64,000 bases of DNA from the NCBI GenBank assembly GCA_035518715.1, contig DATIXJ010000017.1:420-64419 (forward strand). Direction: 5' to 3'. Source of the DNA: Bacteroidota bacterium (lineage in GTDB: Bacteria; Bacteroidota; Ignavibacteria; UBA10030; SZUA-254). The notes beneath the pieces are model-generated. The model searched no databases, had not been told where the DNA came from, and saw only the letters and a program-made list of their open reading frames with translations. Both the position numbers and the translations under genes were made by a program. Of the stretch, positions 22,173 through 51,964 are shown one piece after another; position 1 is the first letter of the stretch, and every line of letters starts with the position of its first letter.

Positions 22173-22248
22173 GCCGTTACAAAGTTGGGGAAAAACATTT
22201 ACTTGTAACGTAATTTAAGAAGAATCCGGGTCAAAATCAACTCCCGTC

Positions 22249-22277
22249 TTGACAATGGTTTCAACTTTCTCTATATT
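22249..22277 (+). promoter_or_regulatory. Near-consensus sigma-70-type promoter (TTGACA-17 nt-TATATT)
   Basis: TTGACA at 22249-22254, an exact 17-nt spacer, and TATATT at 22272-22277. It sits in an AT-rich, ORF-free intergenic region. Confidence 0.5.
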
Positions 22278-22283
22278 AAGTGG

Positions 22284-22474
22284 TTGAAATTGTACACTTA
22301 GGAGATAAGCCCGCACGATTTTGTTAAAGGTTGGATTCTAACGCTGGTTGTGTTCTTTTTCGCAGCGTCATGTTGTTTGACGTTCAGCGATATGGCGGAT
22401 GCCTTTGACAACGTGAGGTGAAGAGTTTCTGGTGTAACCGAATGTCAGGGTGTTCTGGCGTTCGGTTTTTTTTT
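22284..22474 (+). ncRNA. Candidate ~190-nt non-coding transcript or structured 5-prime leader, class unknown
   Basis: Bounded by the promoter above and the intrinsic terminator at 22436-22474. The six-frame track has no ORF of 60 aa or more in 22209-22496. It contains an internal hairpin, ACGCTG(22341-46)/CAGCGT(22363-68). I recognised no known RNA family. Confidence 0.3.
22436..22474 (+). terminator. Intrinsic terminator
   Basis: CCGAATGTCAG (22438-22448), loop GGTGTT, then CTGGCGTTCGG (22455-22465). This is an 11-bp stem with two G-U pairs, extended by AA/TT and followed by a run of 9 T (22466-22474). Confidence 0.65.
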
Positions 22475-22496
22475 GTAATCGGTCATATTATCTAAA

Positions 22497-23036
22497 GTGA
22501 ACAAAATCAACATACTTGCCCGGGCGATGCACAACGCCGAGGAGGTATCAGTGAAAGCAGCTTTATTTTACCTGACATCGGGCATCCTCATCGGATGCTC
22601 GCAGAATCCGGTTTCCAGCCCTCCAGATATCCCGATCAGCCAGTTGCTGGCATCACCCGATACCATTACCATGGATAGACGACAACTGTATCTTGCAACT
22701 TCCATGCGGAGAGACTTTCAGCCCATTAGTCCGCCGGATGGCAAACCGCTCGTTGCCATCTGTTCAGTCACAGCGACAGACTCGACGCGACTCCCGGCTT
22801 CGATTTCAGCCGACGCAGTTTGGATTGTCTACCGCAACCAGGTCTGGAACACCTGGTTTACCAATGAGACCATCCCGACTGATGAATTGAGGCCGAACAA
22901 AGTCGTGAAGTACGCCCGTAATGGTCCAAAGTGGGGACCGAATTCATCAGTCGACGTCATCGTGAGGGTTACAGGTGCGGATGGGAAATTCCAATTACTG
23001 CGAGCGCCCAACCAGTGGATAGGACGCACCGATTGA
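22497..23036 (+). CDS. Hypothetical lipoprotein, first gene of the porU operon
   Basis: 179-aa ORF starting with GTG; an alternative ATG lies 30 nt downstream (MHNAEE...). LTSGILIGCSQN is lipobox-like. I recognised no family. Confidence 0.45.
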   Translation: MNKINILARAMHNAEEVSVKAALFYLTSGILIGCSQNPVSSPPDIPISQLLASPDTITMDRRQLYLATSMRRDFQPISPPDGKPLVAICSVTATDSTRLPASISADAVWIVYRNQVWNTWFTNETIPTDELRPNKVVKYARNGPKWGPNSSVDVIVRVTGADGKFQLLRAPNQWIGRTD

Positions 23037-23060
23037 TCGTGCACGGCATTCTGCATAAAA

Positions 23061-26000
23061 ATGATCCGTAAGATTAACAAATTGAACTCTGACGTCCCGA
23101 CCGCGGGTGCATTCCGTCTTCCACTAGCACATGGATTTGTAGATAGTGGCAACCGGATACCCGTTCTCATTCTAGGCGCTCTTGTGGTCTGTGTTCTGTT
23201 TGGACCTTCGCTCTCACACGCCGCAGGAACAGAGGCCGGAGACGTTCATCTGATTCAATCGGATGGCTCGGGATGCGTAATAGAATACACTCCGGTCTAC
23301 CATGCCGAAAGAGTGAAACTGCAGAACGGGCCGGCTACTCTCCGGTTTCGCGTTGATGGCGGAATTCCCCTTAACCGACAGATGCCTGGTGCGCCGCAAT
23401 TCTTTCAACGCTCGATACTCCTCCGGTTCAGGGGCAGCAAGGGAAATTCCGTCCAGGTGATCAGGACCGAGTATGAGGATTCATCGAATGTTCTCCTGGC
23501 GCCGGTTCCCGGATTTCAGGAAGGCGGGATGGATCCTCAGCCGACGTACACCATGAACGCGGCTGAATATTCCCGGACCGGCATGATGCCCGATCAGCTT
23601 GTTTCACTTTCCGCCGTGGGAGAATCCCGCGGCGTGTATCTTGGTCATGTTGAAGTTGCTCCGTATGAATATAATCCGGCGCTCCGCGTTCTGCGGAGAT
23701 TCAAAAGCATCGTTGTGCGCGTGACATTCGGCCCATCCGAGCCGGCTCGCAGCGCCCGGATGACCACTGCCCGGCTTGCGGTCAACGATCAGACCGTTTC
23801 AGGTTTGCAGCCCGCCCCTGCACCGGCAAGGGTCACGCTCCTGAACAGCGTCCTGAGTTCCGGAACCTGGTACCGCATCCCGATTACAACCGAAGGGATG
23901 TACAAGATCACGGGTCAGGCACTCCTTAACGCTGGGGTTCCTTCATCAACCGATCCGAAAACCATCAAGATCTATGGCAATGGCGGAGCAGAGACACCGC
24001 TGTCACCCACATCGGTTGCCGTGGATGATCTCCTCCCCAACGCGGATTACGTTTACGACGGCGGAACTTCGGGAAAACTCGACGCGTCTGACTATGTAAT
24101 TTTCTATGGAACTCCCACCAACAGCTGGACCTATGACCCGGTTACAAAAACGTATTCCCACCACATCAACCGGTTCAGCGAGACGAACTACTGCTGGCTG
24201 ACGTTCGGCGGATCTCCGGCGAAATCGATGACGGTCGTGCCGTCACTCAATGATCCCGCGGCGTTTGCTCCGCCTACCGGTACCGCAAAACTTTTCCGTG
24301 AGGATGAAAACGAAAATATTCTCGCTTCGGGCCTCAACTGGCTCGGACAGGTCTTCAATACCGGAGATCAGATCACGTACGTCCATCAGCTTCCGGGAGT
24401 TGATGTCACGCAGCCGATTTTTTACAGATTTGATATCGGTGCTCAATCAAACGGATCCTCACAATTCTCGGTTCAGGAACATTCCACCACGATCACAACG
24501 GTTTCGCTTCCAGGAACCTACACGACCGGTGACTCCTATTATATTTCCTCACAGTTTATCAATCGCATAGTTCCGGTTTCGATCGCTCCCAATCAGATCA
24601 ACGGGTTCACCGACGCGCAAAGTCGTCTCCGCTTCCTTTTTTCCTCTACGAGCTCTGCGGGGGTGGGGTATATTGACTGGTATGAAGTGGCGTATAATCG
24701 TTTTCTCTTCGCGCAAAACGATGTCGTCAATTTTTCATCGTACGACACAACGGCAACGATCCAATACCGCGTCCACGGTTTCAGCGGAGGACCGGTAATG
24801 ATATTTGATGTCTCCCGGTTCGACAGCGTGGTCATGATTTCGAACCCCCAGATTGTCGCCGATACGGCCACGTTTCAGATCCAGCAAACGGCGCGGAATC
24901 CGAGGCAGTTGTTTGTGGTCGGACCTGGCGGCTTCCGATCTCCCGGAAGTCTCACCCGCGTGGAGAATCAGAATCTCCACGGGACCGATCCAGGTGCGGC
25001 GTACATTATTGTCACCGAAAGCGATTTTCTTTCAGCAGCTCAGCGCTTGCAGACGTATCGTCAGCAGACGAGCCCAAATCCAATCTCAACTGTTGTCGTC
25101 GATGTCAACCAGATTTACAATGAATTCAGCGGCGGACTTCTGACACCTGTTGCAATCCGGAATTATCTCCGGTATGCATATCAGAACTGGGCACAACCTC
25201 CGAAGTATGTGCTGCTCTTTGGCGACGGGGATTATGACTACCGGCGGATTATTGCGACGGGGCCGGAATGGGTGCCGCCGTGGGAAACGGAGGAATCGTT
25301 CATTCCGCTGAATACCTATTCGAGCGATGACCAGTTCGTCATCTTCAATTCGGCGGACCTTGTGGGGATGGGTATCGGCCGGCTGCCCGCGCGGTCGGGT
25401 TCAGATGCCGATGCGATGGTGAGCAAGATCATTCAATATGAAACGCATGCAGTTGCCGACGACTGGAAATCGCGCTTTACATTCGTGGCGGATGACGGAC
25501 CGGCCGGCCTCAGCAGTTCGGGTGTCATCGATGACGGGTTCCTCCATACCTCGGAGGCGGAAGCAGTCTCAACCCTTGTTCCCGGTCTCTTCGATAAAGT
25601 GAAGATTTACGAATGGGCGTACCCGACGATCGAGGCAGCCGGAGGAAGGCGGAAACCTGACGTCAATGCGGCGATCGATAATCAAATCAACCAGGGAACG
25701 CTCGTGCTCAATTACACGGGACACGGAAATCCTCATCTCTGGGCGGATGAGCATGTCTTTACCGTTGAAGGGGATTTTGCGCTTCTCCACAACACGGCGA
25801 AATATTTTTTCCTCGTTGCTGCCACATGTAATTTTTCGAACTTTGATGCAATTACGCCGCAAAGCGGAGGCGAGCAGCTCGTTGAAATGCCCTCTGCAGG
25901 TGCGATCGGGGTCTTCTCTGCAACGAGGCCGGTTTATGCATTCGAAAATTTTGCACTGAACCAGTCACTCTACAATAAAATGCTTGCAGCCGATTCCATC

Positions 26001-27197
26001 GGCCGCGTGATCCCGCAGCGGCTCGGAGACATTGACTACGAAACCAAGCTTGAACGTAATGATGTGAATGACGCGAAATACTTCCTTCTCGGTGACCCCG
26101 GACTTACGCTTGCTTTTCCCAAGCTCTACGCCTCGATCGACAGTGTGAATCATCTCCCGGGAAATCAGGTGGTCCAGTTGAAAGCGCTCGAACAGTCGAC
26201 CGTGTCGGCACATGTCCGTGATACGTCACAAGCATTTTCCAACGCATTCAACGGAACCGCCGAAGTCGTGGTCTATGATGCAAGTTACGGCGTTACACTG
26301 ACCGACCCTGATCCGGAGGTCATTCCGAACACCTTCACGTATGTCGCGGCGGGCACCCCGCTCTTCCGCGGCCAGGCGAGCGTAACGGCGGGCGCGATGA
26401 ACGTGAGTTTTGTCGTTCCGAAAGATATTTCGTATTCCAGCAACAATGGACGAATCTCGCTCTATTTTTCGAATCCTCTGACCGACGGCTACGGTTACAC
26501 GACGAATATCGTAATCAACGGAACCGATTCAACTGCTGCGCCGGATGGGGTTGGACCGCAGGTGCGTCTCTTTCTCGATAACCGCGGATTCCGGTCGGGA
26601 GATGTCGTTGGAGGATCGCCGACGCTGATTGCAGATCTCTTCGATTCGAGCGGCATCAATACGTCAACATCCGGAGTCGGTCACGGAATCGAAGTCTGGC
26701 TCGACAATCAATCACAAAGCATCGATGTGAGCAGTTATTACAAGAGCAAGACCGACACGTATCGCGAAGGCACGGTTGACTATCCTCTCGGTGCGATTGG
26801 TGAAGGTTCCCATAAGCTCCGCTTCCGGGCATGGGATACCTACGATAATTCCACGACAACGGAAACCGTCTTCGATGTTCTCACCGGTGTCGGCATGCAG
26901 CTGACATCTGTATTCAATTTCCCGAACCCGATGTCGAGCTCGACGCTCTTCACGTTCCAGCACAATCAGGTGTCGATCATCGATGCGGAAGTGAGGATCT
27001 ATACTGTCGCCGGACGGCTGATACGTGATATGAAGAAGAACGGCATCACTACCCAATTTGTCCAAATTCCTTGGGACGGGAGGGATAAGGAAGGCGATGC
27101 GATTGCCAATGGAGTCTATCTCTATAAAGTAAGTGCCAGGACGGAAGATGGACGATTCTCGAGCGAGGCGTTTGGAAAGCTCAGCGTTTTGAAATGA
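23061..27197 (+). CDS. porU: T9SS C-terminal-signal peptidase / sortase PorU (peptidase C25 family)
   Basis: 1378 aa. Gingipain-type catalytic dyad context: NYTGHGN (His codon 25722-25724) and VAATCNFS (Cys codon 25827-25829). Type-A T9SS C-terminal domain at 26913-27194 (FNFPNPMSSSTLFTF...IYTVAGRLI...WDGRDKEGDAIANGVYLYKV...GKLSVLK). porV lies immediately downstream. Confidence 0.85.
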   Translation: MIRKINKLNSDVPTAGAFRLPLAHGFVDSGNRIPVLILGALVVCVLFGPSLSHAAGTEAGDVHLIQSDGSGCVIEYTPVYHAERVKLQNGPATLRFRVDGGIPLNRQMPGAPQFFQRSILLRFRGSKGNSVQVIRTEYEDSSNVLLAPVPGFQEGGMDPQPTYTMNAAEYSRTGMMPDQLVSLSAVGESRGVYLGHVEVAPYEYNPALRVLRRFKSIVVRVTFGPSEPARSARMTTARLAVNDQTVSGLQPAPAPARVTLLNSVLSSGTWYRIPITTEGMYKITGQALLNAGVPSSTDPKTIKIYGNGGAETPLSPTSVAVDDLLPNADYVYDGGTSGKLDASDYVIFYGTPTNSWTYDPVTKTYSHHINRFSETNYCWLTFGGSPAKSMTVVPSLNDPAAFAPPTGTAKLFREDENENILASGLNWLGQVFNTGDQITYVHQLPGVDVTQPIFYRFDIGAQSNGSSQFSVQEHSTTITTVSLPGTYTTGDSYYISSQFINRIVPVSIAPNQINGFTDAQSRLRFLFSSTSSAGVGYIDWYEVAYNRFLFAQNDVVNFSSYDTTATIQYRVHGFSGGPVMIFDVSRFDSVVMISNPQIVADTATFQIQQTARNPRQLFVVGPGGFRSPGSLTRVENQNLHGTDPGAAYIIVTESDFLSAAQRLQTYRQQTSPNPISTVVVDVNQIYNEFSGGLLTPVAIRNYLRYAYQNWAQPPKYVLLFGDGDYDYRRIIATGPEWVPPWETEESFIPLNTYSSDDQFVIFNSADLVGMGIGRLPARSGSDADAMVSKIIQYETHAVADDWKSRFTFVADDGPAGLSSSGVIDDGFLHTSEAEAVSTLVPGLFDKVKIYEWAYPTIEAAGGRRKPDVNAAIDNQINQGTLVLNYTGHGNPHLWADEHVFTVEGDFALLHNTAKYFFLVAATCNFSNFDAITPQSGGEQLVEMPSAGAIGVFSATRPVYAFENFALNQSLYNKMLAADSIGRVIPQRLGDIDYETKLERNDVNDAKYFLLGDPGLTLAFPKLYASIDSVNHLPGNQVVQLKALEQSTVSAHVRDTSQAFSNAFNGTAEVVVYDASYGVTLTDPDPEVIPNTFTYVAAGTPLFRGQASVTAGAMNVSFVVPKDISYSSNNGRISLYFSNPLTDGYGYTTNIVINGTDSTAAPDGVGPQVRLFLDNRGFRSGDVVGGSPTLIADLFDSSGINTSTSGVGHGIEVWLDNQSQSIDVSSYYKSKTDTYREGTVDYPLGAIGEGSHKLRFRAWDTYDNSTTTETVFDVLTGVGMQLTSVFNFPNPMSSSTLFTFQHNQVSIIDAEVRIYTVAGRLIRDMKKNGITTQFVQIPWDGRDKEGDAIANGVYLYKVSARTEDGRFSSEAFGKLSVLK

Positions 27198-27308
27198 ATA
27201 CCATGCCCGATTCCAGTTGTTTTTTAACACGAAAGGTGGTATTTTAATGTACCCCGGATACCAGAATTTGATCAACTCATCTCATTTTTTCATAGAAGGA
27301 ATCCCGTT

Positions 27309-28448
27309 ATGAACTCAAAAGTGGTAGGGAGGTTTCTCCCCTTTTTCATCGTGGCACTCGGAATTATCGGGGTGTTGTTGCCGAGTTCCCAAGTTCTGGC
27401 ACAGGGGGAATCAGCCGTCCCCTTCCTGCTGATTGCACCCAATGCCCGTGCCGACGGGATGGGGGAAGCCGGGGGTGCCCTTGCCGATGACGGATCTGCC
27501 GGATACTGGAATCCTGCGGGACTCGCGTTCCAAAATGGTCAGGAAATCAGTCTCACACACTCGAACTGGCTTCCGCAGTTTCAGCTCTCCGATCTCTTTT
27601 ACGAATATCTTTCGTACAAGAATCATCTCGACGACTGGGGTGGAACGATGTCGGCGAGCATTATCTATCTGAGTCTCGGTGAATTCAATATCACCGGTGA
27701 AGTCGGGCCCGAGATTCTCGGAACGTTTAAAGCGTACGAAGTCTCGGCAACGGTGGGATATGCGTGGAAGCTCAACGAAGAACTCGGACTCGGTTTCAAC
27801 ATGCGCTATATCCGCAGTTCGCTTGCCGATTTTAATGTTCAGCAACAGGATAGAAAAGGTATTGCCTCGGGCGTGAGCTTCGACGTTTCCACACTCTGGA
27901 AGCCGAGCAGCATTCTCGATGATCGTCTCAGCGTCGGCGTGGATCTTTCCAACCTCGGACCGAAGTTGACGTATATCGATGCCGATCAGGCGGATCCTCT
28001 CCCGACGGATCTGAGACTTGCTTTTGCCGGGAAGGTCGTCCGGTCGGAATTCAATAATCTCACACTCATCGTGGATTTTACACGTCTCCTTGTCCGGCGC
28101 CATGCCGCACCCGTCGATTCTCTCGGAAACGTGGGCGAAGCTCCGCCTCCCGACAATCTTCCCAAGTCGCTGATCACGGCCTGGAGCGATGGCGGGTTGA
28201 GGAAAGTTCAGATTGCCACAGGTTTTGAATACTGGTACGGCGCTCCCAAACTCTTCGCCATCCGTATGGGATATTTCTACGAGGATCCCAGCTACGGCAA
28301 CAGGAAGTTCCTCACCTTCGGTGCCGGCATCCGTTACGATGTGTACGGATTTGATTTCAGCTACCTCTCTGCGGTTGATGAGACCAGCCCCCTGGCGGAG
28401 ACCTTACGCTTTAGTCTTTCAATTGCCTGGGGCGGCAAGCAGGACTAA
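27309..28448 (+). CDS. porV: T9SS outer-membrane shuttle protein PorV (LptO)
   Basis: 379 aa with a signal peptide. GESAVPFLLIAPNARADGMGEAGGALADDGSAGYWNPAGLAF is the characteristic PorV N-terminal motif. FadL-like barrel. Conserved porU-porV synteny. Confidence 0.8.
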   Translation: MNSKVVGRFLPFFIVALGIIGVLLPSSQVLAQGESAVPFLLIAPNARADGMGEAGGALADDGSAGYWNPAGLAFQNGQEISLTHSNWLPQFQLSDLFYEYLSYKNHLDDWGGTMSASIIYLSLGEFNITGEVGPEILGTFKAYEVSATVGYAWKLNEELGLGFNMRYIRSSLADFNVQQQDRKGIASGVSFDVSTLWKPSSILDDRLSVGVDLSNLGPKLTYIDADQADPLPTDLRLAFAGKVVRSEFNNLTLIVDFTRLLVRRHAAPVDSLGNVGEAPPPDNLPKSLITAWSDGGLRKVQIATGFEYWYGAPKLFAIRMGYFYEDPSYGNRKFLTFGAGIRYDVYGFDFSYLSAVDETSPLAETLRFSLSIAWGGKQD

Positions 28449-28471
28449 GAGCTGCGTACGTTTGAGGTGAA

Positions 28472-28504
28472 CATCCGCGTGAGCGGCTTCCCGTCACGCG
28501 GATG
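28472..28504 (+). promoter_or_regulatory. Perfect 11-bp inverted repeat (stem-loop) in the porV / downstream-gene spacer
   Basis: CATCCGCGTGA (28472-28482), an 11-nt loop, then TCACGCGGATG (28494-28504). No U-tract follows. Confidence 0.4.
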
Positions 28505-28533
28505 ATTCACCGACCTCTTGTCCGCTTCTCATC

Positions 28534-31500
28534 ATGAGCATGAGCATCCCAACGTCATTTACCCTTGCTGATATTCGTGTTACGAGAGCGATCCTGATCG
28601 TCCTCCTTGCGTTCGTTCCGTTGAGGGCCTTCTCCGGCCCGCCGGAAACCCGCGTCGTATTTGGACACCCTCTCAATTCAGCTCCGCAGCAGATCCGGCC
28701 CCGCATTGGTGCTCAGGTCTTTCCGGAAACAACGCATGTTCTTGCGGTGATGACGGATTTCGTGCAGGACAAGGACGATCGCACAACCGGAACGGGAAGC
28801 TTCGATCTTTCCGCGGCAACGAACGTCATTGATCCCACTCCTCATAACAAGGCATATTTTGATCAGCATGCCGCGTTTCTTCAGAACTATTTCCGGAAGT
28901 CTTCCGATGGCCGGTGCATTGTCGAAGTGACGGTCCTCGACAGTGTCTACCACCTTTCCCATAAGATGCGCTATTACAGTCCTTCGCCGAAAAGTCCCGA
29001 CAACCGCGAAATCGGATTGATGATGCAGGAGACCTGGCATCTCGTCGATTCGCTCAACCCGGGTTTTCCGTTTCGTCAGTATGATGTTTTTCTGATATTT
29101 CATGCCGGAGCGGGGAGAGATATCGACTTCGTCAGCATCTATGGATATGATCCGACACCGTTCGACATTCCCTCGATTTATGTCGGTCCTGCTGCGCTGA
29201 AGAAGATGTTCGGAAGCGCGTATGATGGTATTTCCGTGGGAAATGGTCTGGACACCATACGTAATTCTCTCATCATTCCGGAAACCGAAAGCCGCCCGCT
29301 CAGCGGAGGGGCAGGGACTTCGCTGCTTCAGCTTGGGATCAACGGACTTCTCGCAGCGACCTTCGGGAGCTCTCTCGGACTTCCCGATCTTTTTGATACA
29401 AAATCCGGAGCCAGTGGCATCGGGCGTTTCGGATTGATGGACGGTCAGTCGATTTTCAGCTGGAGCGGGATTTTTCCTCCACAGCCATCGGCATGGGAAC
29501 GCTATTTTCTCGGGTGGTCGACTCCGATCACCGTGAGCGCATTCGATTCTGTCTATACGTTTCCCGCGAGCAGTCTCCCCGGAGCCGAGGATTCACTGTT
29601 TCGTGTTCCGATCAGTGCGAGAGAATACTTTCTTGTTGAAAACCGCTGCCGCGATGCGCATGGTGACGGCGCAATCATCACACTTGTCCGCGACGGATCG
29701 ACCATAACGAAGACGTATCCTCGGGATTTTGATCCCGGTTTCAATTTCTCGAGCCAGGACTCCCTCTACGGTGTAGTTACCGATGTCGATGAATTTGACT
29801 GGAGTCTGCCCGGCTTCAGTCCGACCGGATCAGAAATGGCAAACGGCGGACTCCTCATCTGGCACATCGACGAAAATGTCATCGATGCGTCGATTGAGAC
29901 GGATGCCGTCAATGCCAACCCCATTGATCGCGGCGTCAATCTGCTGGAAGCGGACGGATCTCAGGATATCGGCCAAACCTACGATCTGCTCTCTCCGGGT
30001 TTTGGAAGCGAGAACGGAACCTCGATTGATTTCTGGTATGGAGATAACTCCGCACCGGCAAGGCGGATATCGAATGTCTTCTCGCCGACTTCGCTGCCGA
30101 GCAGCCGGAGCAATAATCAGGCGAATACACACATTGTGATTTCCGGATTTTCCCTCCGCGGCCCGTACATGACTGCCCGGATTCAGCTGGGAGACAATGT
30201 CGTTAGTCCGATTCCCGGGTTTCCGAAATATACCGGCATGAAGTTCGGCAGAAATTCGGTGACTATAATAAACGACAAGCCAACACCGGATTCGACTTCA
30301 CTCGTCGTTGCCACCGATGTCGTCGGCGTACAGCTGCCCGCCACTCCCACGGGATTGCCGATAAGCAGTGTCGGTGAATCGAAGCTCTACGGCTGGCACA
30401 TTGCCGGCGGGACTCCGCTCCTCACGACCGGAAGCGCCGACGGCCTTCTTGTGACCTCCGGGAATGCCTCTCGCGCATTTGTCGGTAAGCCCGTGGAGGG
30501 TAATCTCGCACAGAACGGTACTGCAGACTTGGCAATTGGGATGGTGGATAATGCAGTCTTTCTGCCCCCGGCTACTCCGCTCCAGAGCGCGAACACCGGC
30601 TGGGGTCTGCAGGATCTGAACAGCGACGGGAAAGCAGATTCACTCTTTGCCACGAAAACGTTCCGCAGGATCACAACCTCTCCGGTTCTATCGGATTCTT
30701 TTGTGGTTTATGGTGCGGAGCATGGGACGGTCTATATCTTTCGGTACGATGGCACCTTATCAGACAGCGTGACCAGTTCGCAGGATACCTCCGGGGTTGT
30801 CGGGATTTGCCTCGAGCCGAACCCTGCGGGAACATTTGTTGCAGTAACCATAAACGGTTCGTTCATCCAGAGTCCGGGACGAGGGTGTGTTCGAACAACC
30901 ATCACCGCGGGTTCTCCATTCCGCTCGGCGCTGCAACAAGGGTTGTCGCCGGCGGTGCTTGGAAGAACTCCGCCGTATAACCTGCGAACCGTCATGGTCT
31001 CGCCGGCGGGGATGGTCTACGATTTCAATGAGTGTCTGGGAATTGAAATGGGGTTCCCGGTGTCGACGGATGGAACAATTTCCAACGCCCCCGCAATTGC
31101 AGATATCGACGGTGATGGAAGCCCTGATATCATAGTGGCGAGCGGCAAGAAGATCTATGCGATCAACAATGCCGGCGCGGTTCTCGACAATTTTCCGGTT
31201 ACGCTGCCGACGTATCAAAATATCCTGAGCTCTCCAATTGTTGCTGATGTCGAAGGGAACGGCAGTGTTGATATTGTGGCGGTGACTCAGGAAGGTCTGG
31301 TCGTTGCGTACAATCGTTTCGGGAAAATGATCAACGGATTTCCGCTGCAGGGAGGTATCAACGGCGGTTCGACTCCTGCGGCGTTTCTCTTCAGGTCAAC
31401 CCAATGTCAGGGCTGCGAGGCAGCGATCGGTATTGCCGTTGCGTCGGACGACGGAAATGTGTATGCCTGGCAGACAGGAACGGTTGCATCGCTTGCAACC

Positions 31501-31884
31501 CCTGTGAAGATGCCCTGGCCGCAATATCTCCACGATGCTCAGAACAGCAGTATAGGAGATCCGGTTTCGGGAGGATCACTTCCCGCATCCGATTTCTTCC
31601 CGGCCTCCCGTGCGTACAACTGGCCGAACCCTGTCGGGAAGGAGCAGGCATTCAAGACTCACATCCGGTATTACGTCGGGACAGATGCACAGGTCCATAT
31701 CAAGATTTATGATCTGGCCGGAGAGATGGTGACGCAATTCGACGGCCCCGGTACGGGCGGCAGGGATAACGAGGTCGAGTGGGACGTTTCCGGGATTCAG
31801 AGCGGTGTCTATTTTGCACATATCGACGCGCAGGGATCCGGAGGAACCGGCAACGCCATCATCAAGATTGCGGTGGTGAAGTGA
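28534..31884 (+). CDS. Secreted M6-like pseudo-metallopeptidase with FG-GAP repeats and a T9SS C-terminal sorting domain
   Basis: 1116 aa with a signal peptide. M6 (immune inhibitor A)-type scaffold: VLAVMTDFVQDKDD, AATFGSSLGLPDLFDT in place of AHEFGHxLGLPDEYDT (29353-29400), and LLIWHIDENV. FG-GAP-like repeats: ADIDGDGSPDIIVASG, ADVEGNGSVDIVAVT, LNSDGKADSLF. Type-A CTD at 31615-31881 (YNWPNPVGKE...IKIYDLAGEMV...SGVYFAHI...IKIAVVK). Confidence 0.7.
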   Translation: MSMSIPTSFTLADIRVTRAILIVLLAFVPLRAFSGPPETRVVFGHPLNSAPQQIRPRIGAQVFPETTHVLAVMTDFVQDKDDRTTGTGSFDLSAATNVIDPTPHNKAYFDQHAAFLQNYFRKSSDGRCIVEVTVLDSVYHLSHKMRYYSPSPKSPDNREIGLMMQETWHLVDSLNPGFPFRQYDVFLIFHAGAGRDIDFVSIYGYDPTPFDIPSIYVGPAALKKMFGSAYDGISVGNGLDTIRNSLIIPETESRPLSGGAGTSLLQLGINGLLAATFGSSLGLPDLFDTKSGASGIGRFGLMDGQSIFSWSGIFPPQPSAWERYFLGWSTPITVSAFDSVYTFPASSLPGAEDSLFRVPISAREYFLVENRCRDAHGDGAIITLVRDGSTITKTYPRDFDPGFNFSSQDSLYGVVTDVDEFDWSLPGFSPTGSEMANGGLLIWHIDENVIDASIETDAVNANPIDRGVNLLEADGSQDIGQTYDLLSPGFGSENGTSIDFWYGDNSAPARRISNVFSPTSLPSSRSNNQANTHIVISGFSLRGPYMTARIQLGDNVVSPIPGFPKYTGMKFGRNSVTIINDKPTPDSTSLVVATDVVGVQLPATPTGLPISSVGESKLYGWHIAGGTPLLTTGSADGLLVTSGNASRAFVGKPVEGNLAQNGTADLAIGMVDNAVFLPPATPLQSANTGWGLQDLNSDGKADSLFATKTFRRITTSPVLSDSFVVYGAEHGTVYIFRYDGTLSDSVTSSQDTSGVVGICLEPNPAGTFVAVTINGSFIQSPGRGCVRTTITAGSPFRSALQQGLSPAVLGRTPPYNLRTVMVSPAGMVYDFNECLGIEMGFPVSTDGTISNAPAIADIDGDGSPDIIVASGKKIYAINNAGAVLDNFPVTLPTYQNILSSPIVADVEGNGSVDIVAVTQEGLVVAYNRFGKMINGFPLQGGINGGSTPAAFLFRSTQCQGCEAAIGIAVASDDGNVYAWQTGTVASLATPVKMPWPQYLHDAQNSSIGDPVSGGSLPASDFFPASRAYNWPNPVGKEQAFKTHIRYYVGTDAQVHIKIYDLAGEMVTQFDGPGTGGRDNEVEWDVSGIQSGVYFAHIDAQGSGGTGNAIIKIAVVK

Positions 31885-31887
31885 GGT

Positions 31888-32547
31888 GTGGCATTGCGTT
31901 TCGTCATCGTCATGCTCTTCGGCTTTGTTGTCCTTTCGTGCCGCGATGTGCAACCTCTGCCGGTATCGACTCCGGTATCCGGTTATCAGCTGAACGGCAT
32001 ACTCACGACTTCCAACAGCATCCCCATTTCCGGCGCTCAGGTGATCCTCTATTATAACTATATTCCGGTCGATTACGGACCGGTTGATTCCATCCAGGTC
32101 GTTGTTCGCGATACCAGCGTGACCGTCGATGTGTCAGTCGTAACAACGGGATACGATTTTGTAGTGACATTATTCCACGGGCACCGGAGTGCCGGACCGC
32201 TTCCGCCGTATTTCTGGAACGGGACCGACGCGCGCGGAGCTCTGCGGCCGAGCGGTAAGTATCTCATCCGGTATTCTCTGGGAAGCACGATCGTGAAATA
32301 CTCCACCTTCATTCTGGAGGGGACTCCGACGGCAACGACCGATGTGAATGGTCTTTTTACCATCACCGATGATCATTTTCCTATCGGTGAAGTGTTTGAT
32401 GTATATAACGATGACGGCTCCTATTACGGAACGCTTGAGCTCATACCGAATGTTGCACTGCAGTTCCAATATGGAAGCCATGCATCGGTTTTCCCGTCCG
32501 TCGACCTCACTCCCGATTACATCACCTTCGGTGCATTTACACTCTGA
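31888..32547 (+). CDS. Hypothetical lipoprotein (CarboxypepD_reg-like / FlgD-Ig-like segments)
   Basis: 219 aa, GTG start 3 nt after the upstream stop. FGFVVLSCRD is a lipobox. YQLNGILTTSNSIPISGAQVILY resembles a carboxypeptidase-regulatory-like fold, and YFWNGTDARGALRPSGKYLIRY resembles an FlgD-Ig-like motif. Confidence 0.45.
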   Translation: MALRFVIVMLFGFVVLSCRDVQPLPVSTPVSGYQLNGILTTSNSIPISGAQVILYYNYIPVDYGPVDSIQVVVRDTSVTVDVSVVTTGYDFVVTLFHGHRSAGPLPPYFWNGTDARGALRPSGKYLIRYSLGSTIVKYSTFILEGTPTATTDVNGLFTITDDHFPIGEVFDVYNDDGSYYGTLELIPNVALQFQYGSHASVFPSVDLTPDYITFGAFTL

Positions 32548-32553
32548 TCGAAT

Positions 32554-35500
32554 ATGATGATGCGTCGCTTCTGGGTTCTCACAGTTCTTCTTCCGGTTCT
32601 CTCACTCGTTGCGTATGCTCAGGACGATTTCTTCCATCCGGAACTCGACTGGCGGACCATCGAGACCGAGCATTTTTCCGTCCACTATCATACCGGGGCG
32701 GAGCGAACTGCACGAGTCGTGGCGAAGGTCGCGGAAGATATTTACGAGCCGGTGACTTCACTCTACCATCATAAGCCCGATGGGAAGGTGAATTTTGTGA
32801 TCAAGGACGTTGACGACTACTCAAACGGCGGTGCGTACTTTTTTGATAACAAGATCGAGATCTGGGCGTCGGCGCTCGATTTTGATCTTCGCGGCACGCA
32901 CAACTGGCTCCGGAATGTCGTCACCCACGAGTTCACGCACATTGTCCAGATCCAGACTTCGTTGAAATTCGGGCGCAAAGTTCCGGCATTGTATTTTCAA
33001 TGGCTCCAGTATGAGTCGGAGCGCCGGACGGATGTCCTCTACGGTTTTCCCAACGGCATCGTCTCGTATCCGTTTTCGGGATATGTTGTCCCAAGCTGGT
33101 TTGCAGAAGGAGTGGCGCAGTATAATCGGAAAGAGCTCGGCTACGACACATGGGATTCACACCGTGATATGATTCTCCGGATGTATGCGCTCGACAGTAC
33201 GCTCCTTTCATGGAACGAGATGGCGGTCTTCGGCAAGACAAGCCTGGGGAACGAATCGTCGTACAATGCGGGCTTTTCGATCGTACGGTATATCGGTCAG
33301 CATTACGGAGATGACAAGCTCGAGGAAATCTCGAGGAACCTCTCGTCGCTCACAGCCGTCACGATCGACGGGGCGATTGAAAAAGCGATCGGCAAGAGCG
33401 GAAGCGATCTCTACGACGAGTGGAAGAATGCTCTCATGAAAGATTATGCAGAGCGGACGGCGGGAATGAGGAGCTCACTTGCCCAGGGCGAGATTGTCGG
33501 GGGCATCGGCTTTGGAAACTTCTATCCAACCTTCTCGCCAGACGGAAAAGCGTTCGCCTACGTCAGCAACAAGCACGCGGATTATTTCGGGCTGTCTTCT
33601 CTCTATCTGTACGATATGCCAACGAAGAAAGAGAAAATGTTGAAATCAGGGGTCCGTTCCACGCTTTCCTGGTCGCCCGACGGTACCAAGCTGTTCTACT
33701 CGAAACTCAGTCGTGATAACAGCCACTGGTCGAACCTCTTCGATGTATATGTCTATGATATATCCCGCGACGAAGAAAAACGTCTGACATTCGGTGCGCG
33801 TGCCAACTCACCGGCAATCTCTCCGGACGGAAAGACGGTGGTCTATGTGGCGGGAAGCGACGGTACGCTGAATCTCTTCGCCATGAATTCCGACGGATCC
33901 AACATCCGCCAGCTCACGAAGTATGCGAACGGCGAGCAGGTCTATAATCCGAAATGGTCTCCCGACGGATCGACGGTGATTTTCGATTATTCGTTTCTCG
34001 ACGGGCGGGATATTGCGACGGTGCCTGCCGCCGGCGGCGAAGTGACGATGCTTCTTGCCACTCCCGACGATGAACGAAATGCCGTCTACACTCCGGACGG
34101 CACACATATCATTTATGCTTCCGACAAAACCGGTGTCTTCAATATTTATCAATATGATCTTCATTCGAAAGAATCCGAGCAGTTGACGAATGTTCTCGGT
34201 GGTGCGTTCATGCCATCGGTCAATGCGAGCGGCTCACTCGCATTCGCAACCTATACGTCCAGCGGATACAAAATTGCCCTGATCGATTCGATGCGCTCAC
34301 TTTCCCATCCGGTACCCTATCTCCGAAATTCCGGAAATGAAAGCGCCGACACCGCCGCGCTTGCCTCGGCAAAGAGCGCAGCCCCGACCCAGCAGTTCGA
34401 CTGGGCGTCCCTCAGGTCGTATGACGACACGAAGCTGGTTCCGCTCAGGGATACAACATACAAAACTGTTGCAACCGACCTGACGTTTGTTCCGCTTCTC
34501 CGTGTCGACAACTACAATCCGCGCAACAAAGGTATCGATGAAGTCAAGTTAGGCCTGTTTGCGTTCTCGTATGACATGCTAGACCAGTACGGCTTTAACC
34601 TCGGAGCAGCGATCAATAAGGGCGGTGAGCGCGATCTGTTTCTCTCGTTCGATTATCGCGGCAAGATACCGGGACTCTTTCAGCTTGGACTCGAACCCGC
34701 TTTATCCTTCGAGGCATATAACATCACGCGCAATGCCGACAGCTTTGTGGCCCTTCCGACCGATACCATCGGAGTCGGGGTCTGGTACAATTTCCTCGAG
34801 TTCGATCTCGCGCTCAAGCAGAAAATTATCAATGAAGCAACCGATCTTGAGATTCGTTATGCGCACAGCCGGTATACTGCATCGATCGATGCATTCTCAC
34901 TTCCTGCAACCGGTCAGCTTGTGCCTGCATTCAGTGAGCTCTATCTCATCGGCAACGATCTCTCTCTGACGCTGAATATTGAAGCGCTGGTTCCATCGAG
35001 AACATCCGAGATCAACCCGGTCGGAAGAAAAATCCGGGTACGGTATGATTATGAGGCAAACAAATTCAACCCGACGGGCCAATATGCCGTCGACCCGGCA
35101 AGCGGGCTTCTTCTTCCCGAATACGAACAGATCAATATGCACCGTCTGGAATTGAGCTGGCGGGAATCGCAGGAACTGCCCGGATGGACACACACGCTCT
35201 CCGGTCAGCTCCGCGGCGGGACGATATTCGGTCCGCCGGTAGACGATTTTTTTGATTTCTACATCGGGGGGCTCGAGGGGATGAAGGGCTATCCGTTCTA
35301 TTCACTCGGCGGAAACGAATATGTGTACGGAAATCTGACGTACCGGTTTCCGGTCGACGAGCATCTTGATTTTCGTGTGCTGCAGTTGTACTTTGACAAG
35401 CTCTATGCGGCATTCTACGGCGACGTCGGCGATGCCTGGTCGGGCGGAGGACTGGAAGGGCGCAACTACAAACGGGATGCAGGCATGGAGTTACGGCTGG

Positions 35501-35661
35501 AGGCATTTTCCTATTATGCTTTCCCGACGAGAATATTTTTCAATGCGACGTACGGATTCGATCAGTTCACGCACTACGTTCAGAGTACCAATACGACCGT
35601 TACCTATGGCAAGGACTGGAACTTCCATTTCGGTGTTCTGTTCGGATTCGATCTCGATTAA
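32554..35661 (+). CDS. Outer-membrane fusion protein: MA-type HExxH peptidase-like domain + PD40 (TolB-like) beta-propeller repeats + Omp85-type beta-barrel
   Basis: 1035 aa with a signal peptide (VLLPVLSLVAYAQD). HEFTH lies at 32926-32940, with WFAEGVAQY about 55 residues downstream. At least five PD40-like repeats: FSPDGKAFAYVS, WSPDGTKLFYS, ISPDGKTVVYVAGSDGTLNLF, WSPDGSTVIF, YTPDGTHIIYASDKTGVFNIY. The C-terminal roughly 380 aa carry Omp85/Bac_surface_Ag-like motifs: IGGLEGMKGYPFYSLGGNEYVYGNLTYRFPV, FYGDVGDAWS, AGMELRLEAF...RIFFNATYG. Confidence 0.7.
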   Translation: MMMRRFWVLTVLLPVLSLVAYAQDDFFHPELDWRTIETEHFSVHYHTGAERTARVVAKVAEDIYEPVTSLYHHKPDGKVNFVIKDVDDYSNGGAYFFDNKIEIWASALDFDLRGTHNWLRNVVTHEFTHIVQIQTSLKFGRKVPALYFQWLQYESERRTDVLYGFPNGIVSYPFSGYVVPSWFAEGVAQYNRKELGYDTWDSHRDMILRMYALDSTLLSWNEMAVFGKTSLGNESSYNAGFSIVRYIGQHYGDDKLEEISRNLSSLTAVTIDGAIEKAIGKSGSDLYDEWKNALMKDYAERTAGMRSSLAQGEIVGGIGFGNFYPTFSPDGKAFAYVSNKHADYFGLSSLYLYDMPTKKEKMLKSGVRSTLSWSPDGTKLFYSKLSRDNSHWSNLFDVYVYDISRDEEKRLTFGARANSPAISPDGKTVVYVAGSDGTLNLFAMNSDGSNIRQLTKYANGEQVYNPKWSPDGSTVIFDYSFLDGRDIATVPAAGGEVTMLLATPDDERNAVYTPDGTHIIYASDKTGVFNIYQYDLHSKESEQLTNVLGGAFMPSVNASGSLAFATYTSSGYKIALIDSMRSLSHPVPYLRNSGNESADTAALASAKSAAPTQQFDWASLRSYDDTKLVPLRDTTYKTVATDLTFVPLLRVDNYNPRNKGIDEVKLGLFAFSYDMLDQYGFNLGAAINKGGERDLFLSFDYRGKIPGLFQLGLEPALSFEAYNITRNADSFVALPTDTIGVGVWYNFLEFDLALKQKIINEATDLEIRYAHSRYTASIDAFSLPATGQLVPAFSELYLIGNDLSLTLNIEALVPSRTSEINPVGRKIRVRYDYEANKFNPTGQYAVDPASGLLLPEYEQINMHRLELSWRESQELPGWTHTLSGQLRGGTIFGPPVDDFFDFYIGGLEGMKGYPFYSLGGNEYVYGNLTYRFPVDEHLDFRVLQLYFDKLYAAFYGDVGDAWSGGGLEGRNYKRDAGMELRLEAFSYYAFPTRIFFNATYGFDQFTHYVQSTNTTVTYGKDWNFHFGVLFGFDLD

Positions 35662-35674
35662 TGAAAGGTCTTGT

Positions 35675-36646
35675 ATGAAAATTCCCGCGTGCTGTCTCAT
35701 CGCATCGTTGTTCCTCATTTCCCGGGCATTCTGCGGCGACGACGGATCAGTCCATCTTACGGGGAACCGTCACATTGATTTTTTCGGAACTCCGGCACAG
35801 CAGCTCGCATTTTCGTCTCCGGGGTCCCTGGCACTCGATGTCCTCTCGGCGTCGAATGAGGAAGTGGGAACCCGCAGATCGCCCTGGCTTGCAGGTGCCA
35901 TGTCTCTCGCCGTCCCGGGGTCCGGCGAAATTTATTCACAGCAATATCTTCGCGGTGCCCTGTTCATTGCCGCGGAAGCGGCTTCGTGGTTCTTCCACAT
36001 TTCCTACGGCAAGAAGGGAGACAATCAGGAAGTTCTGTTCGAGAGTTACGCCAACGCACACTACAGTGTCGTTCGCTATACCAACTGGACACTGAATCAT
36101 CTCGCCATCCTGTCGTCGAACGGAAGTCTTCCCTATAGCGAGTCCCAGTATGCCCAGCTCATTTACGGTACGACGACCCTCCCGGACCCGAGTAAAGTAC
36201 CCCCGCCGTTCAGCGACGTCCACTGGGATGAACTCAATGCCATGGAATCCGATATCGGCAGTGTTCCGGGAAGCGGATACTCTCACCAGCTCCCATTCTA
36301 CAATACTCAGCAGTATTATGAACTGATCGGAAAGTATAACGAATTCAGCCGCGGCTGGGATGATGCGAACCCTTCAGATCCTCGTGATCAGATTGTCCCA
36401 CTGGTGAGCACGTCGAACGAAATGTTCATTTATCACGACATGCGCGCGCAGGCGAACAACTATTACGACGTCGCGACGACCTTTGCGAGTGTGATCGTGG
36501 CAAACCATATTCTGAGTGCGATCGACGCGTTCTGGGCGGCAACGCAATACAACAGCTCGCTTCATGCCGATATTCACATCAACATGCAGCCGAGTCCGCA
36601 GGGATATGTCCCCGTGACGGAGGCGGTCCTTCAATACGATTTTTAG
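35675..36646 (+). CDS. Hypothetical membrane protein (DUF5683-like helical hairpin), last gene of the porU operon
   Basis: I prefer the ATG at 35675 (MKIPACCLIASLFLISRAFCGDD, signal-like) over the track start at 35366, which lies inside the upstream gene. Hydrophobic pair SPWLAGAMSLAVPGSGEIYSQQYLRGALFIAAEAASWFF plus a C-terminal hydrophobic helix. Confidence 0.5.
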   Translation: MKIPACCLIASLFLISRAFCGDDGSVHLTGNRHIDFFGTPAQQLAFSSPGSLALDVLSASNEEVGTRRSPWLAGAMSLAVPGSGEIYSQQYLRGALFIAAEAASWFFHISYGKKGDNQEVLFESYANAHYSVVRYTNWTLNHLAILSSNGSLPYSESQYAQLIYGTTTLPDPSKVPPPFSDVHWDELNAMESDIGSVPGSGYSHQLPFYNTQQYYELIGKYNEFSRGWDDANPSDPRDQIVPLVSTSNEMFIYHDMRAQANNYYDVATTFASVIVANHILSAIDAFWAATQYNSSLHADIHINMQPSPQGYVPVTEAVLQYDF

Positions 36647-51940: not shown

Positions 51941-51964
51941 CAACCTGAAAGGACGCTACTCGCG

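What the first reader, a model, noticed from the sequence alone, without database searches (positions are those of the whole stretch)
22497..36646. Seven-gene, 14-kb operon extending porU-porV with four uncharacterised envelope proteins
All seven genes are on the plus strand, and the distal ones have minimal gaps (3, 6 and 13 nt). The order is: lipoprotein, PorU, PorV, an M6-like pseudo-peptidase with FG-GAP repeats and a CTD, a lipoprotein, an HExxH-PD40-Omp85 barrel fusion, and a membrane protein. In Porphyromonas the attachment complex is PorU-PorV-PorZ-PorQ, with porZ and porQ encoded elsewhere. Here no recognisable porZ or porQ is present. Instead, a propeller-type CTD protein and an extra barrel are translationally coupled to porUV. 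This looks like an alternative or expanded attachment and processing module of the T9SS in a non-Bacteroidia lineage. It is the most likely place in this window for genuinely undescribed biology.
Basis: partly seen in the sequence, partly recalled or inferred. Interest (0 to 1): 0.7.

Follow-up and report, generated by a model that had tools for sequence, protein, structure and literature searches.

The report
Extended porU-porV secretion operon, Ignavibacteria
In this soil bacterium and its whole class, the two genes that finish type IX protein secretion sit in one conserved operon with a dead protease, an outer-membrane barrel carrying a live protease, and a small membrane protein, behind a previously unlisted structured RNA leader. 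None of these extra parts has been studied.

Summary
The seven plus-strand ORFs, their gaps and their domain calls are real. Across related genomes the conserved unit is smaller and has an extra part. PorU-PorV lies directly upstream of the M6-like pseudo-protease in 51 of 51 testable loci. The HExxH/propeller/Omp85 protein (g6) follows in 51 of 53 and the DUF5683-like protein (g7) in 50 of 53. This holds from Ignavibacteria to Kryptonia, where the flanking genes differ. The small lipoprotein g5 is optional (19 of 53). The first ORF, g1, was found in none of 35 relatives. Upstream lies a conserved sigma-70-type promoter and a roughly 190-nt structured leader ending in a terminator hairpin. It has no Rfam match and occurs only in front of porU. 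"Uncharacterised" is partly overstated. The pseudo-protease is NCBIfam NF052323, and the g6 architecture matches the "WD40-like Omp85" class catalogued in 2014. Neither has a known function, and I found no paper linking them to T9SS. M6i is not a PorZ homologue, and no gene in the module matches PorQ or has a PorQ-type barrel. Whether porZ and porQ exist elsewhere in the genome could not be tested. My reading is a lineage-specific accessory module of the T9SS sorting station. That is a new variant of a known system, of moderate to high interest.

The parts
22249..22277 (+). Sigma-70-type promoter (TTGACA-17-TATATT) of the operon
   Evidence: It matches 11 of 12 consensus positions and is the best promoter-like site in the region. 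TTGAC and TATATT are invariant, and the flanking bases nearly so, in 12 aligned relatives.
22284..22476 (+). Conserved structured 5' leader RNA. It has a 10-bp long-range stem (GUUAAAGGUU / GCCUUUGAC), a variable insert, a terminator hairpin (22436-22467) and a U-run.
   Evidence: MFE is -66.5 kcal/mol with z = -4.3. RNAalifold gives 21 pairs. On 30 sequences, 96.2% of cells pair, 12 pairs show double changes, and 0 of 500 shuffles reach this. Covariance model R1 hits the window plus 36 loci, always directly 5' of porU and nowhere else in 1.42 Mb. Rfam has no match. In relatives the porU start codon lies 6-35 nt after the U-run.
22497..23036 (+). g1, a 179-aa putative lipoprotein (lipobox LIGC). 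It is lineage-specific and inserted between the leader and porU.
   Evidence: The ORF is. It has no family hit. It has no homologue in 80 related loci, and relatives have an ORF-free gap of about 400 nt here. Its codon score is 0.07, against 0.26-0.34 for its neighbours.
23061..27197 (+). porU, the T9SS C25-family sortase, carrying its own type A CTD
   Evidence: NF033707 937 bits (cut-off 420), Peptidase_C25 E 3.7e-88, Por_Secre_tail 27 bits.
27309..28448 (+). porV, the T9SS outer-membrane shuttle/anchor barrel
   Evidence: NF033710 258.6 bits (cut-off 250), PorV_fam 304 bits, PF19572 E 2.2e-33.
28534..31884 (+). g4 (M6i): signal peptide, catalytically dead M6-like domain, FG-GAP beta-propeller region and T9SS type A CTD
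   Evidence: NF052323 814 bits (cut-off 600), FG-GAP_3, and Por_Secre_tail 24.8 bits against a cut-off of 23. HExxH is replaced by ATFGS across the family. The propeller region resembles the PVL lectin propeller (E 2.9e-7). porU-porV lies directly upstream in 51 of 51 loci.
31888..32547 (+). g5, a 219-aa putative lipoprotein (lipobox VLSC). It is an optional member of the module.
   Evidence: It has no family above threshold. It lies between M6i and g6 in 19 of 53 loci. The other loci have only about 70-240 nt there.
32554..35661 (+). g6: signal peptide, MA-clan zinc peptidase (HEFTH...E185), Tricorn/TolB-like beta-propeller and a C-terminal Omp85-type barrel (about residues 640-1035)
   Evidence: Pfam and NCBIfam hits are. 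The catalytic motif is invariant in 28 homologues. The AlphaFold model has pLDDT 73 and roughly 16-18 strand segments in the barrel region. The propeller resembles TolB. It lies adjacent to M6i in 51 of 53 loci.
35675..36646 (+). g7: 323-aa protein with a signal peptide, a DUF5683-like two-helix hairpin, an invariant QQYYELIGKY..GW motif, a C-terminal hydrophobic helix and a terminal Y-x-F
   Evidence: DUF5683 scores 21.7 bits (cut-off 26.7) in the window protein. Many orthologues carry recorded PF18935 or PF20382 hits. It follows g6 in 50 of 53 loci.

Best explanation
This is the Ignavibacteria/Kryptonia version of the porU-porV locus. It is one transcription unit encoding the T9SS cell-surface sorting station plus lineage-specific accessory envelope proteins.

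Shown:
- A conserved sigma-70-type promoter is followed by a conserved structured leader of about 190 nt. The leader's terminator hairpin ends a few nucleotides before the first ORF.
- The order porU, porV, M6i, (g5), g6, g7 is kept collinear and closely spaced across class-level divergence.

Inferred:
- Expression of the whole unit is gated by conditional read-through of the leader terminator.
- PorU (the sortase) and M6i both leave the cell through the T9SS by their type A CTDs.
- M6i is catalytically dead and carries a lectin-like FG-GAP propeller. It would act as a non-enzymatic surface subunit that binds glycan, LPS or cargo next to PorU/PorV. That is a PorZ-like role without PorZ ancestry.
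- g6 sits in the outer membrane through its Omp85-type barrel. By the usual Omp85 topology, its active zinc peptidase and Tricorn/TolB-like propeller face the periplasm. There it would clear or trim T9SS-related polypeptides, or assist assembly of the module's barrels.
- g7 is the membrane partner of the g6 barrel.
- g5 is dispensable, and g1 is a recent insertion that uses the same leader.
For: - Family memberships of PorU, PorV and M6i are above curated cut-offs.
- Synteny: porU-porV upstream of M6i in 51 of 51 loci, g6 in 51 of 53, g7 in 50 of 53.
- The core persists where protein identity to the window falls to 33-37% (PorU, M6i). In Kryptonia the flanks are different genes, for example DnaJ upstream.
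- Stop and start overlap by 4 nt between M6i and g6, and g6-g7 are 9 nt apart, in L067. Gaps in the window are 3, 6 and 13 nt.
- The count of terminator-like sites across the region does not exceed chance (13 found, 15.1 expected).
- The leader is found only 5' of porU, in the window plus 36 loci, with covariation. porU starts 6-35 nt after the U-run, leaving no room for a separate promoter after the terminator.
- The window also carries sprA and porX 3-10 kb downstream.
- The M6i active site is lost family-wide while the g6 active site is invariant.
- In one natural variant the g6 barrel and g7 are both replaced by caspase-like domains, which suggests the two work together.
Against: - No experiment or transcript data exist.
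- Sequence-level links of the accessory genes to T9SS are limited: M6i's type A CTD and its adjacency to porU-porV, and for g5-g7 gene order alone.
- The 'WD40-like Omp85' architecture that g6 matches was catalogued as a class with no reference to T9SS (PMC4104836). From my memory of the accession numbers, some members belong to Proteobacteria and Myxococcota, which lack T9SS. A general outer-membrane role for g6 is therefore plausible.
- The NCBIfam name treats M6i as a T9SS cargo, not a component.
- Two Ignavibacteriaceae loci (L063, L065) keep porU-porV-M6i but have unrelated genes where g6 and g7 would be.
- All 80 comparison loci belong to one broad clade, so part of the synteny is shared ancestry.
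- The side of the membrane that the g6 peptidase faces is assumed, not shown.
Confidence: 0.5

Rival explanations
1. Strong form of the first reader's idea. M6i and g6 (with g7) replace PorZ and PorQ, forming an alternative attachment complex in lineages that lack porZ and porQ.
For: - M6i shares the PorZ logic of propeller plus type A CTD, and it is encoded right after porV.
- PorZ is two propellers plus a retained CTD and binds A-LPS (PMC5121618, PMC8545088).
- No porZ or porQ lies in the 64-kb window, although sprA and porX do.
- A barrel protein follows M6i, as PorQ partners PorZ in P. gingivalis (PMC5562754).
Against: - M6i scores 16.6 bits on the PorZ model (cut-off 260), and only over the CTD.
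- The M6i family profile finds no PorZ chain in the PDB at E <= 0.01.
- g6 is an Omp85-type barrel, not a FadL/PorV-type barrel like PorQ.
- L063 and L065 have M6i without g6.
- Genome-wide absence of porZ and porQ was not testable with these tools.
Confidence: 0.2
2. M6i is simply an abundant T9SS cargo, such as an adhesin or lectin. g6 and g7 are a general outer-membrane quality-control or assembly factor of the WD40-like Omp85 class. They are co-expressed with porUV because all are envelope genes, not because they act on T9SS cargo.
For: - NCBIfam names M6i with the same 'T9SS-dependent' convention it uses for the M36 peptidase NF038113. I read that convention as a cargo label.
- The WD40-like Omp85 class was described with no reference to T9SS and likened to a BamA-BamB fusion (PMC4104836).
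- In closer relatives the operon is flanked by other envelope genes: a BamG-like gene, lptF/G and sprA.
Against: - Linkage of g6 and g7 to porUV-M6i survives where all other flanks are lost (L067, L069).
- Spacing is tight or overlapping.
- M6i was never found away from porUV in 51 of 51 loci, which is unusual for an ordinary cargo gene.
Confidence: 0.25
3. The gene order is phylogenetic inertia within one clade and carries no functional meaning.
For: All 80 retrieved loci are Ignavibacteria/Kryptonia-type MAGs. In the closer relatives, 10 kb of flanking genes are conserved as well.
Against: The flanks are replaced in the more distant loci while the five-gene core, its orientation and its short gaps persist. 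PorU and M6i identity there is down to 33-37%. A dedicated conserved leader precedes the unit.
Confidence: 0.05

Closest known systems
P. gingivalis T9SS attachment complex PorU-PorV-PorQ-PorZ (PMC5562754, PMC5121618, PMC8545088)
   Same: PorU and PorV are true orthologues and are adjacent, as in Bacteroidia. A CTD-bearing propeller protein and an outer-membrane barrel accompany them.
   Different: The propeller protein is an M6-like pseudo-protease with an FG-GAP propeller and is not a PorZ homologue. The barrel is Omp85-type and is fused to an active zinc peptidase and a TolB/Tricorn-like propeller, so it is not PorQ. All are in one operon, with an extra DUF5683-like protein and an RNA leader.
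NCBIfam NF052323, T9SS-dependent M6-like inactivated metalloprotease
   Same: g4 scores 814 bits (cut-off 600). A Kryptonia orthologue scores 1013 bits over the full length.
   Different: The model gives only a name and implies cargo status. I found no published function and no paper describing the linkage to porUV, g6 and g7.
'WD40-like Omp85' subfamily of Heinz & Lithgow 2014 (PMC4104836)
   Same: The architecture is the same: an aminopeptidase-like MA domain, a TolB-like propeller and a BamA/TamA-like barrel, with no detectable POTRA domain.
   Different: The class was catalogued with no function and no T9SS link. Here it is embedded in the porUV operon and followed by a dedicated partner gene. 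Direct homology of g6 to the listed members was not tested.
BepA, and PlpD (type Vd) as models for a hydrolase working with an Omp85 barrel
   Same: A hydrolase is functionally or physically coupled to an Omp85-family barrel. It could be periplasmic quality control (as for BepA) or a surface-delivered passenger (as for PlpD).
   Different: BepA is an M48/TPR protein and is not fused to the barrel. PlpD carries a patatin domain and a POTRA domain. g6 has an MA_2 peptidase plus a propeller and no clear POTRA.
Terminator-type 5' leaders (riboswitches, attenuators)
   Same: The layout is the same: promoter, conserved structured RNA of about 190 nt, a terminator hairpin with a U-run, and then the start codon within 6-35 nt.
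   Different: There is no match to any of the 4227 Rfam families. The ligand or partner is unknown, no alternative anti-terminator pairing was identified, and the terminator stem sequence is itself conserved.

Membership tests
T9SS sortase PorU (NF033707) | Whole-protein score above the curated cut-off, C25 peptidase domain, own CTD | tested here: met
   937 bits against 420, Peptidase_C25 E 3.7e-88, Por_Secre_tail 27 bits.
T9SS PorV (NF033710) | Whole-protein score above the curated cut-off | tested here: met
   258.6 bits against 250, which is marginal. PorV/PorQ family model 304 bits against 90.
NF052323 T9SS-dependent M6-like inactivated metalloprotease (g4) | Score above cut-off, loss of HExxH, type A CTD | tested here: met
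   814 bits against 600. ATFGS replaces HExxH, with A275 invariant. TIGR04183 24.8 bits against 23.
PorZ (NF052228) for g4 | Sequence membership above cut-off | tested here: not met
   16.6 bits against 260, over the CTD only. The family profile finds no PorZ chain in the PDB at E <= 0.01.
PorZ for g4 | Retains its CTD on the surface, binds A-LPS and docks on a PorQ-type barrel | not testable with these tools
   This needs proteomics and biochemistry.
PorQ (NF033711) for g5, g6, g7 | PorV/PorQ-family (FadL-like) barrel above cut-off | tested here: not met
   g5, g6 and g7 give no PorQ or PorV_fam hit. The g6 barrel is Omp85-type.
Omp85 superfamily (g6 C-terminus) | PF01103 match | tested here: inconclusive
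   The window protein gives no hit at E <= 0.01. Five of 28 orthologues hit, best E 1.8e-9. One orthologue has an unmarked PF01103 hit on record.
Omp85 superfamily (g6 C-terminus) | 16-strand BamA-like barrel fold with the L6 (V/I)RG(Y/F) and FxDxG motifs | tested here: met
   Top Foldseek hits are BamA, TamA, CdiB and Sam50, at E 4e-6 to 5e-4. The model is weak (pLDDT 59) and TM-scores are 0.2-0.48. GGLEGMKGY (905-913) and YGDVGDAW (955-962) are conserved.
Omp85 superfamily (g6) | At least one POTRA domain before the barrel | tested here: inconclusive
   There is no POTRA hit. The 579-643 linker is low-confidence.
WD40-like Omp85 subfamily (Heinz & Lithgow 2014) | TolB-like propeller, with an aminopeptidase-like domain, N-terminal to an Omp85 barrel | tested here: met
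   The architecture matches (against PMC4104836). Homology to the listed members was not tested.
MA-clan gluzincin peptidase (g6 N-terminus) | HExxH plus a downstream Glu ligand | tested here: met
   H125, E126, H129 and E185 are invariant in 28 sequences. Peptidase_MA_2 38 bits against 32.4. Activity was not tested.
DUF5683 (g7) | Pfam gathering score | tested here: not met
   21.7 bits against 26.7, covering profile positions 3-46 only. Many orthologues carry recorded PF18935 hits.
Operon (single transcription unit) | Same strand, short gaps, one promoter, no internal terminator, one transcript | tested here: inconclusive
   Strand, gaps, the promoter and the lack of excess internal terminators are met. 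The transcript itself cannot be tested here.
Any Rfam family (leader RNA) | Covariance-model match | tested here: not met
   No match at gathering score over the whole window, and none at E <= 1 for 22150-23100.

The most novel reading that the evidence does not exclude
Ignavibacteria and Kryptonia run a differently built T9SS attachment and processing station. A dead M6 protease with a lectin-like propeller takes the PorZ role. An Omp85 barrel fused to an active zinc protease and propeller, with its DUF5683-like partner, anchors it or disposes of cleaved sorting domains. The whole sortase operon is switched by a new class of terminator-type RNA leader. That leader would be the first riboregulator described for a T9SS.
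Probability: 0.2. Interest if true: 0.8.

Novelty: new variant of a known kind. Interest (0 to 1): 0.58.

Why it matters
T9SS mechanism is known almost entirely from Porphyromonas and Flavobacterium. How cargo is cleaved, anchored and released in the many other FCB lineages is open. A class-wide operon that ties the sortase and its shuttle to three unstudied envelope proteins gives named candidates. They can be tested by deletion, pull-down and complex prediction. It also gives the orphan 'WD40-like Omp85' class its first functional context. The conserved leader offers a handle on how T9SS sorting capacity is regulated.

Tried and rejected
- **g1 as part of the module: rejected.** There is no tblastn hit even at E <= 10 at the syntenic place. 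Relatives have an ORF-free gap of about 400 nt, or, in L010, an unrelated 143-aa ORF.
- **Sequence search of the g6 barrel against the PDB.** Neither the single sequence nor the profile gave a hit at E <= 10.
- **Fold search with full-length g6.** It returned only propeller matches. A second model of residues 575-1035 was weaker (pLDDT 59) but gave Omp85 hits.
- **Exact-sequence look-up of the NCBI copy of g4.** Nothing is on record.
- **Leader as a known RNA: rejected.** Rfam has no match.
- **Leader as a free-standing sRNA with a separate porU promoter after the terminator: judged unlikely.** Only 6-35 nt separate the U-run from the start codon. A promoter inside the leader is not excluded.
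- **Leader in I. album-type loci.** It was not found even with filters off.
- **Leader peptide.** I saw a 12-codon ORF in the variable insert of the window sequence. It lies in the part of the leader that does not align between relatives.
- **Literature.** Searches for Ignavibacteria, Kryptonia or Melioribacter T9SS, for M6 or Omp85 links, and for DUF5683 found nothing relevant.
- **Upstream DNRLRE protein as BamH.** It matched only the DNRLRE domain model in NCBIfam. I did not check whether a BamH model exists, so I do not claim this.

Full report
**What is in the sequence.** Seven ORFs lie head to tail on the + strand at exactly the reported coordinates. The gaps are 24, 111, 85, 3, 6 and 13 nt.

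- PorU scores 937 bits on NF033707 (cut-off 420). PorV scores 258.6 bits on NF033710 (cut-off 250). Both are orthologues by curated cut-offs.
- g4 (1116 aa) scores 814 bits on NCBIfam NF052323, 'T9SS-dependent M6-like inactivated metalloprotease' (cut-off 600). It also has FG-GAP repeats and a type A sorting domain.
- Aligned with 13 homologues, the M6 motif HEFGH-D reads A-T-F-G-S-S in g4. The alanine is invariant, while the following LGLPDLFD is conserved. The 'pseudo-peptidase' reading is correct.
- g6 (1035 aa) has a Peptidase_MA_2 domain. H125, E126, H129 and E185 are invariant in 28 homologues, so it looks like a live enzyme.
- The g6 propeller matches TolB by sequence and by fold. It also matches the Tricorn_N and Tricorn_2nd Pfam families on record.

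**The Omp85 claim.** Pfam does not see Omp85 in the window protein. Three other lines support it.

- Five of 28 orthologues hit PF01103, best E 1.8e-9.
- A model of residues 575-1035 has BamA (F. johnsoniae, E. coli, D. radiodurans), TamA, CdiB and Sam50 as its best PDB matches, at E 4e-6 to 5e-4. The model is weak (pLDDT 59) and the TM-scores are low.
- The conserved strings GGLEGMKGY and YGDVGDAW look like the Omp85 L6 and FxDxG motifs. That resemblance is my reading of the sequence.

The full-length model (pLDDT 73) shows roughly 16-18 strand segments in the barrel region. No POTRA domain was detected.

**The smaller ORFs.** g5 and g1 have lipoboxes. g7 has a signal peptide, a DUF5683-like two-helix hairpin that is below threshold in the window copy, an invariant QQYYELIGKY..GW motif and a terminal Y-x-F.

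**Source organism.** The identical g4 protein is recorded from a 'Bacteroidota bacterium' MAG. The best genome matches are Ignavibacteria or Ignavibacteriales MAGs. More distant matches include Candidatus Chrysopegis kryptomonas and another Kryptonia MAG. The same locus is present in two metagenome assemblies.

**Is the order conserved?** I retrieved 80 genome loci centred on g4 relatives (at least 579 exist). I mapped all window proteins onto them with tblastn.

| Gene relative to M6i | Loci with it adjacent | Loci testable |
|---|---|---|
| porU and porV upstream, same strand | 51 | 51 |
| g6 downstream | 51 | 53 |
| g7 after g6 | 50 | 53 |
| g5 between M6i and g6 | 19 | 53 |

- The exceptions for g6 are L063 and L065, where a glycosyltransferase and unrelated genes follow M6i.
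- Where g5 is missing, only about 70-240 nt separate M6i and g6.
- In the closer relatives the flanks are conserved too: a BamG-like gene, a DNRLRE protein, gmhB and a glgA-like gene upstream, and lptG/F and sprA downstream.
- In Kryptonia and other distant loci these flanks are replaced, for example by DnaJ upstream in L067. The five-gene core remains, with M6i and g6 overlapping by 4 nt and g6-g7 9 nt apart.
- Identity to the window there is 37% (PorU), 55% (PorV), 35% (M6i), 49% (g6) and 38% (g7).

This is stronger than shared ancestry alone would give. All comparison loci still belong to one broad clade.

**g1 does not belong to the conserved unit.** It has no homologue in any locus, even at E <= 10. 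In 35 relatives the glgA-like to porU interval is typically about 400 nt without a credible ORF. Its codon score is 0.07, against 0.26-0.34 for its neighbours.

**An unreported part: promoter and RNA leader.** The interval upstream holds a near-consensus TTGACA-17-TATATT promoter (22249-22277) and the strongest terminator-like hairpin of the region (22436-22467, with a U-run). Both are conserved in relatives, together with two boxes, TTGTTAAAGGTT and AACCTTTGACAA, that can pair.

- The 195-nt stretch (22284-22478) folds at -66.5 kcal/mol, z = -4.3.
- RNAalifold recovers the 10-bp long-range stem and the terminator.
- A covariance model finds the element in the window plus 36 loci, at 33-134 bits. 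Every copy is directly 5' of porU on the same strand, and there are none elsewhere in 1.42 Mb. That is 35 of the 50 loci that contain the porU 5' region. It includes Kryptonia but not I. album-type loci.
- On 30 sequences, 96.2% of cells pair and 12 pairs show double changes. None of 500 shuffles reach this. The alignment was fitted to the model, which favours the structure.
- Rfam has no match.
- In relatives the porU start codon follows the U-run by only 6-35 nt. The element is therefore best read as a 5' leader or attenuator of the operon, not an independent sRNA.
- In the window, g1 starts 21 nt after the U-run, so it sits in the place porU holds elsewhere. L010 has a different small ORF at the same spot.

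**Comparison with what is known.** In P. gingivalis the attachment complex is PorU:PorV:PorQ:PorZ (PMC5562754). PorZ consists of two seven-bladed propellers and a retained CTD (PMC5121618).

- g4 is not a PorZ homologue. It scores 16.6 bits against a cut-off of 260, over the CTD only. Its family profile finds fungal PVL-type lectin propellers in the PDB, not PorZ.
- None of g5, g6 or g7 matches PorQ, and the g6 barrel is Omp85-type.
- No porZ or porQ is in the window. The rest of the genome was out of reach.
- g4 is already a curated family. The architecture of g6 matches the 'WD40-like Omp85' subfamily of Heinz & Lithgow 2014. Their supplement records BamA/TamA, TolB and aminopeptidase template hits for at least 15 members, and they compared the class to a BamA-BamB fusion (PMC4104836). 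They give no function and no T9SS link.
- A profile search shows that the g6 family is large. Dozens of the 150 best 50%-identity clusters match over the full profile length.
- I found no paper on T9SS accessory genes in Ignavibacteria or Kryptonia.

**Interpretation.** The best-supported reading is a single regulated operon for the T9SS sorting station with lineage-specific accessory proteins.

- M6i is a T9SS-exported, non-catalytic, lectin-like surface subunit.
- g6 is an outer-membrane-anchored active zinc protease. It is probably periplasmic, by the usual Omp85 topology.
- g7 is its partner. In one variant contig, the g6 barrel and g7 are both replaced by caspase-like domains.

All roles beyond family membership and gene linkage are inferred. 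The main rival treats M6i as ordinary cargo and g6/g7 as a general outer-membrane factor. It cannot be excluded.

**Verdict.** This is a new variant of a known system, with a probably new RNA leader as a bonus.

Noticed in passing
window 22249-22476: A conserved sigma-70-type promoter and a structured RNA leader of about 190 nt with a terminator hairpin lie directly 5' of porU. The leader is present in the window plus 36 related loci (Ignavibacteria and Kryptonia) and has no Rfam match. It is a candidate attenuator or riboswitch-like element for the T9SS sortase operon.
   Followed up: yes
window 18284-19549 (-) and 19557-20957 (-): A BamG-like FadL/PorV-type barrel (NF053685, 240 bits, just under the 250 cut-off) sits next to a DNRLRE-domain protein. 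The pair is conserved divergently upstream of porU in the closer relatives. BamG is an essential surface-linked BAM subunit in Bacteroidota (PMC12611786). Whether the DNRLRE neighbour is a BamH counterpart is open.
   Followed up: partly
window 39550-46521 (+) and 46607-48184 (+): sprA/sov (981 bits) and the response regulator porX (710 bits) lie adjacent, 3 kb downstream of the operon. lptG and lptF are convergent in between. This makes a T9SS and envelope gene neighbourhood of about 26 kb.
   Followed up: partly
window 20722-22172 (-): The 285-aa glgA-like ORF matches only the N-terminal half of glycogen synthase. It abuts a GmhB-type heptose bisphosphate phosphatase, sharing a single base (21315). 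A more distant relative (L083) has a full-length 494-aa glycogen synthase at this position.
   Followed up: no
ENA ERZ1426824 contig carrying P0170 (no DNA held): In this variant operon the g6 protein keeps the peptidase and propeller but ends in a Peptidase_C14 (caspase-like) domain instead of the barrel. g7 is replaced by a 605-aa C14 protein.
   Followed up: no
L010 4105-4536: An unrelated 143-aa ORF with a signal peptide sits between the leader RNA and porU. This is the same slot that g1 occupies in the window, so the position after the leader seems to accept insertions.
   Followed up: partly
window 32554-32640 and 27309-27410: The likely signal-peptide cleavage sites expose an N-terminal Gln (AYA|QDD in g6, with Q23 invariant in 28 homologues, and VLA|QGE in PorV). 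This resembles the 'Bacteroidetes Q-rule', which was reported as not general for the FCB group (PMC5837995).
   Followed up: no
window 51161-56876 (+): A cluster of a TonB-C-domain protein, an outer-membrane barrel/OmpA-like protein and a 1006-aa TPR protein. The TPR protein hits YbgF/CpoB and BamD models strongly and the PorW/SprE model weakly (100 bits, cut-off 250).
   Followed up: no
L063 and L065, downstream of M6i: Two Ignavibacteriaceae loci keep porU-porV-M6i but have a GT2 glycosyltransferase and unrelated genes where g6 and g7 would be. Whether g6 and g7 are elsewhere in those genomes is unknown.
   Followed up: partly
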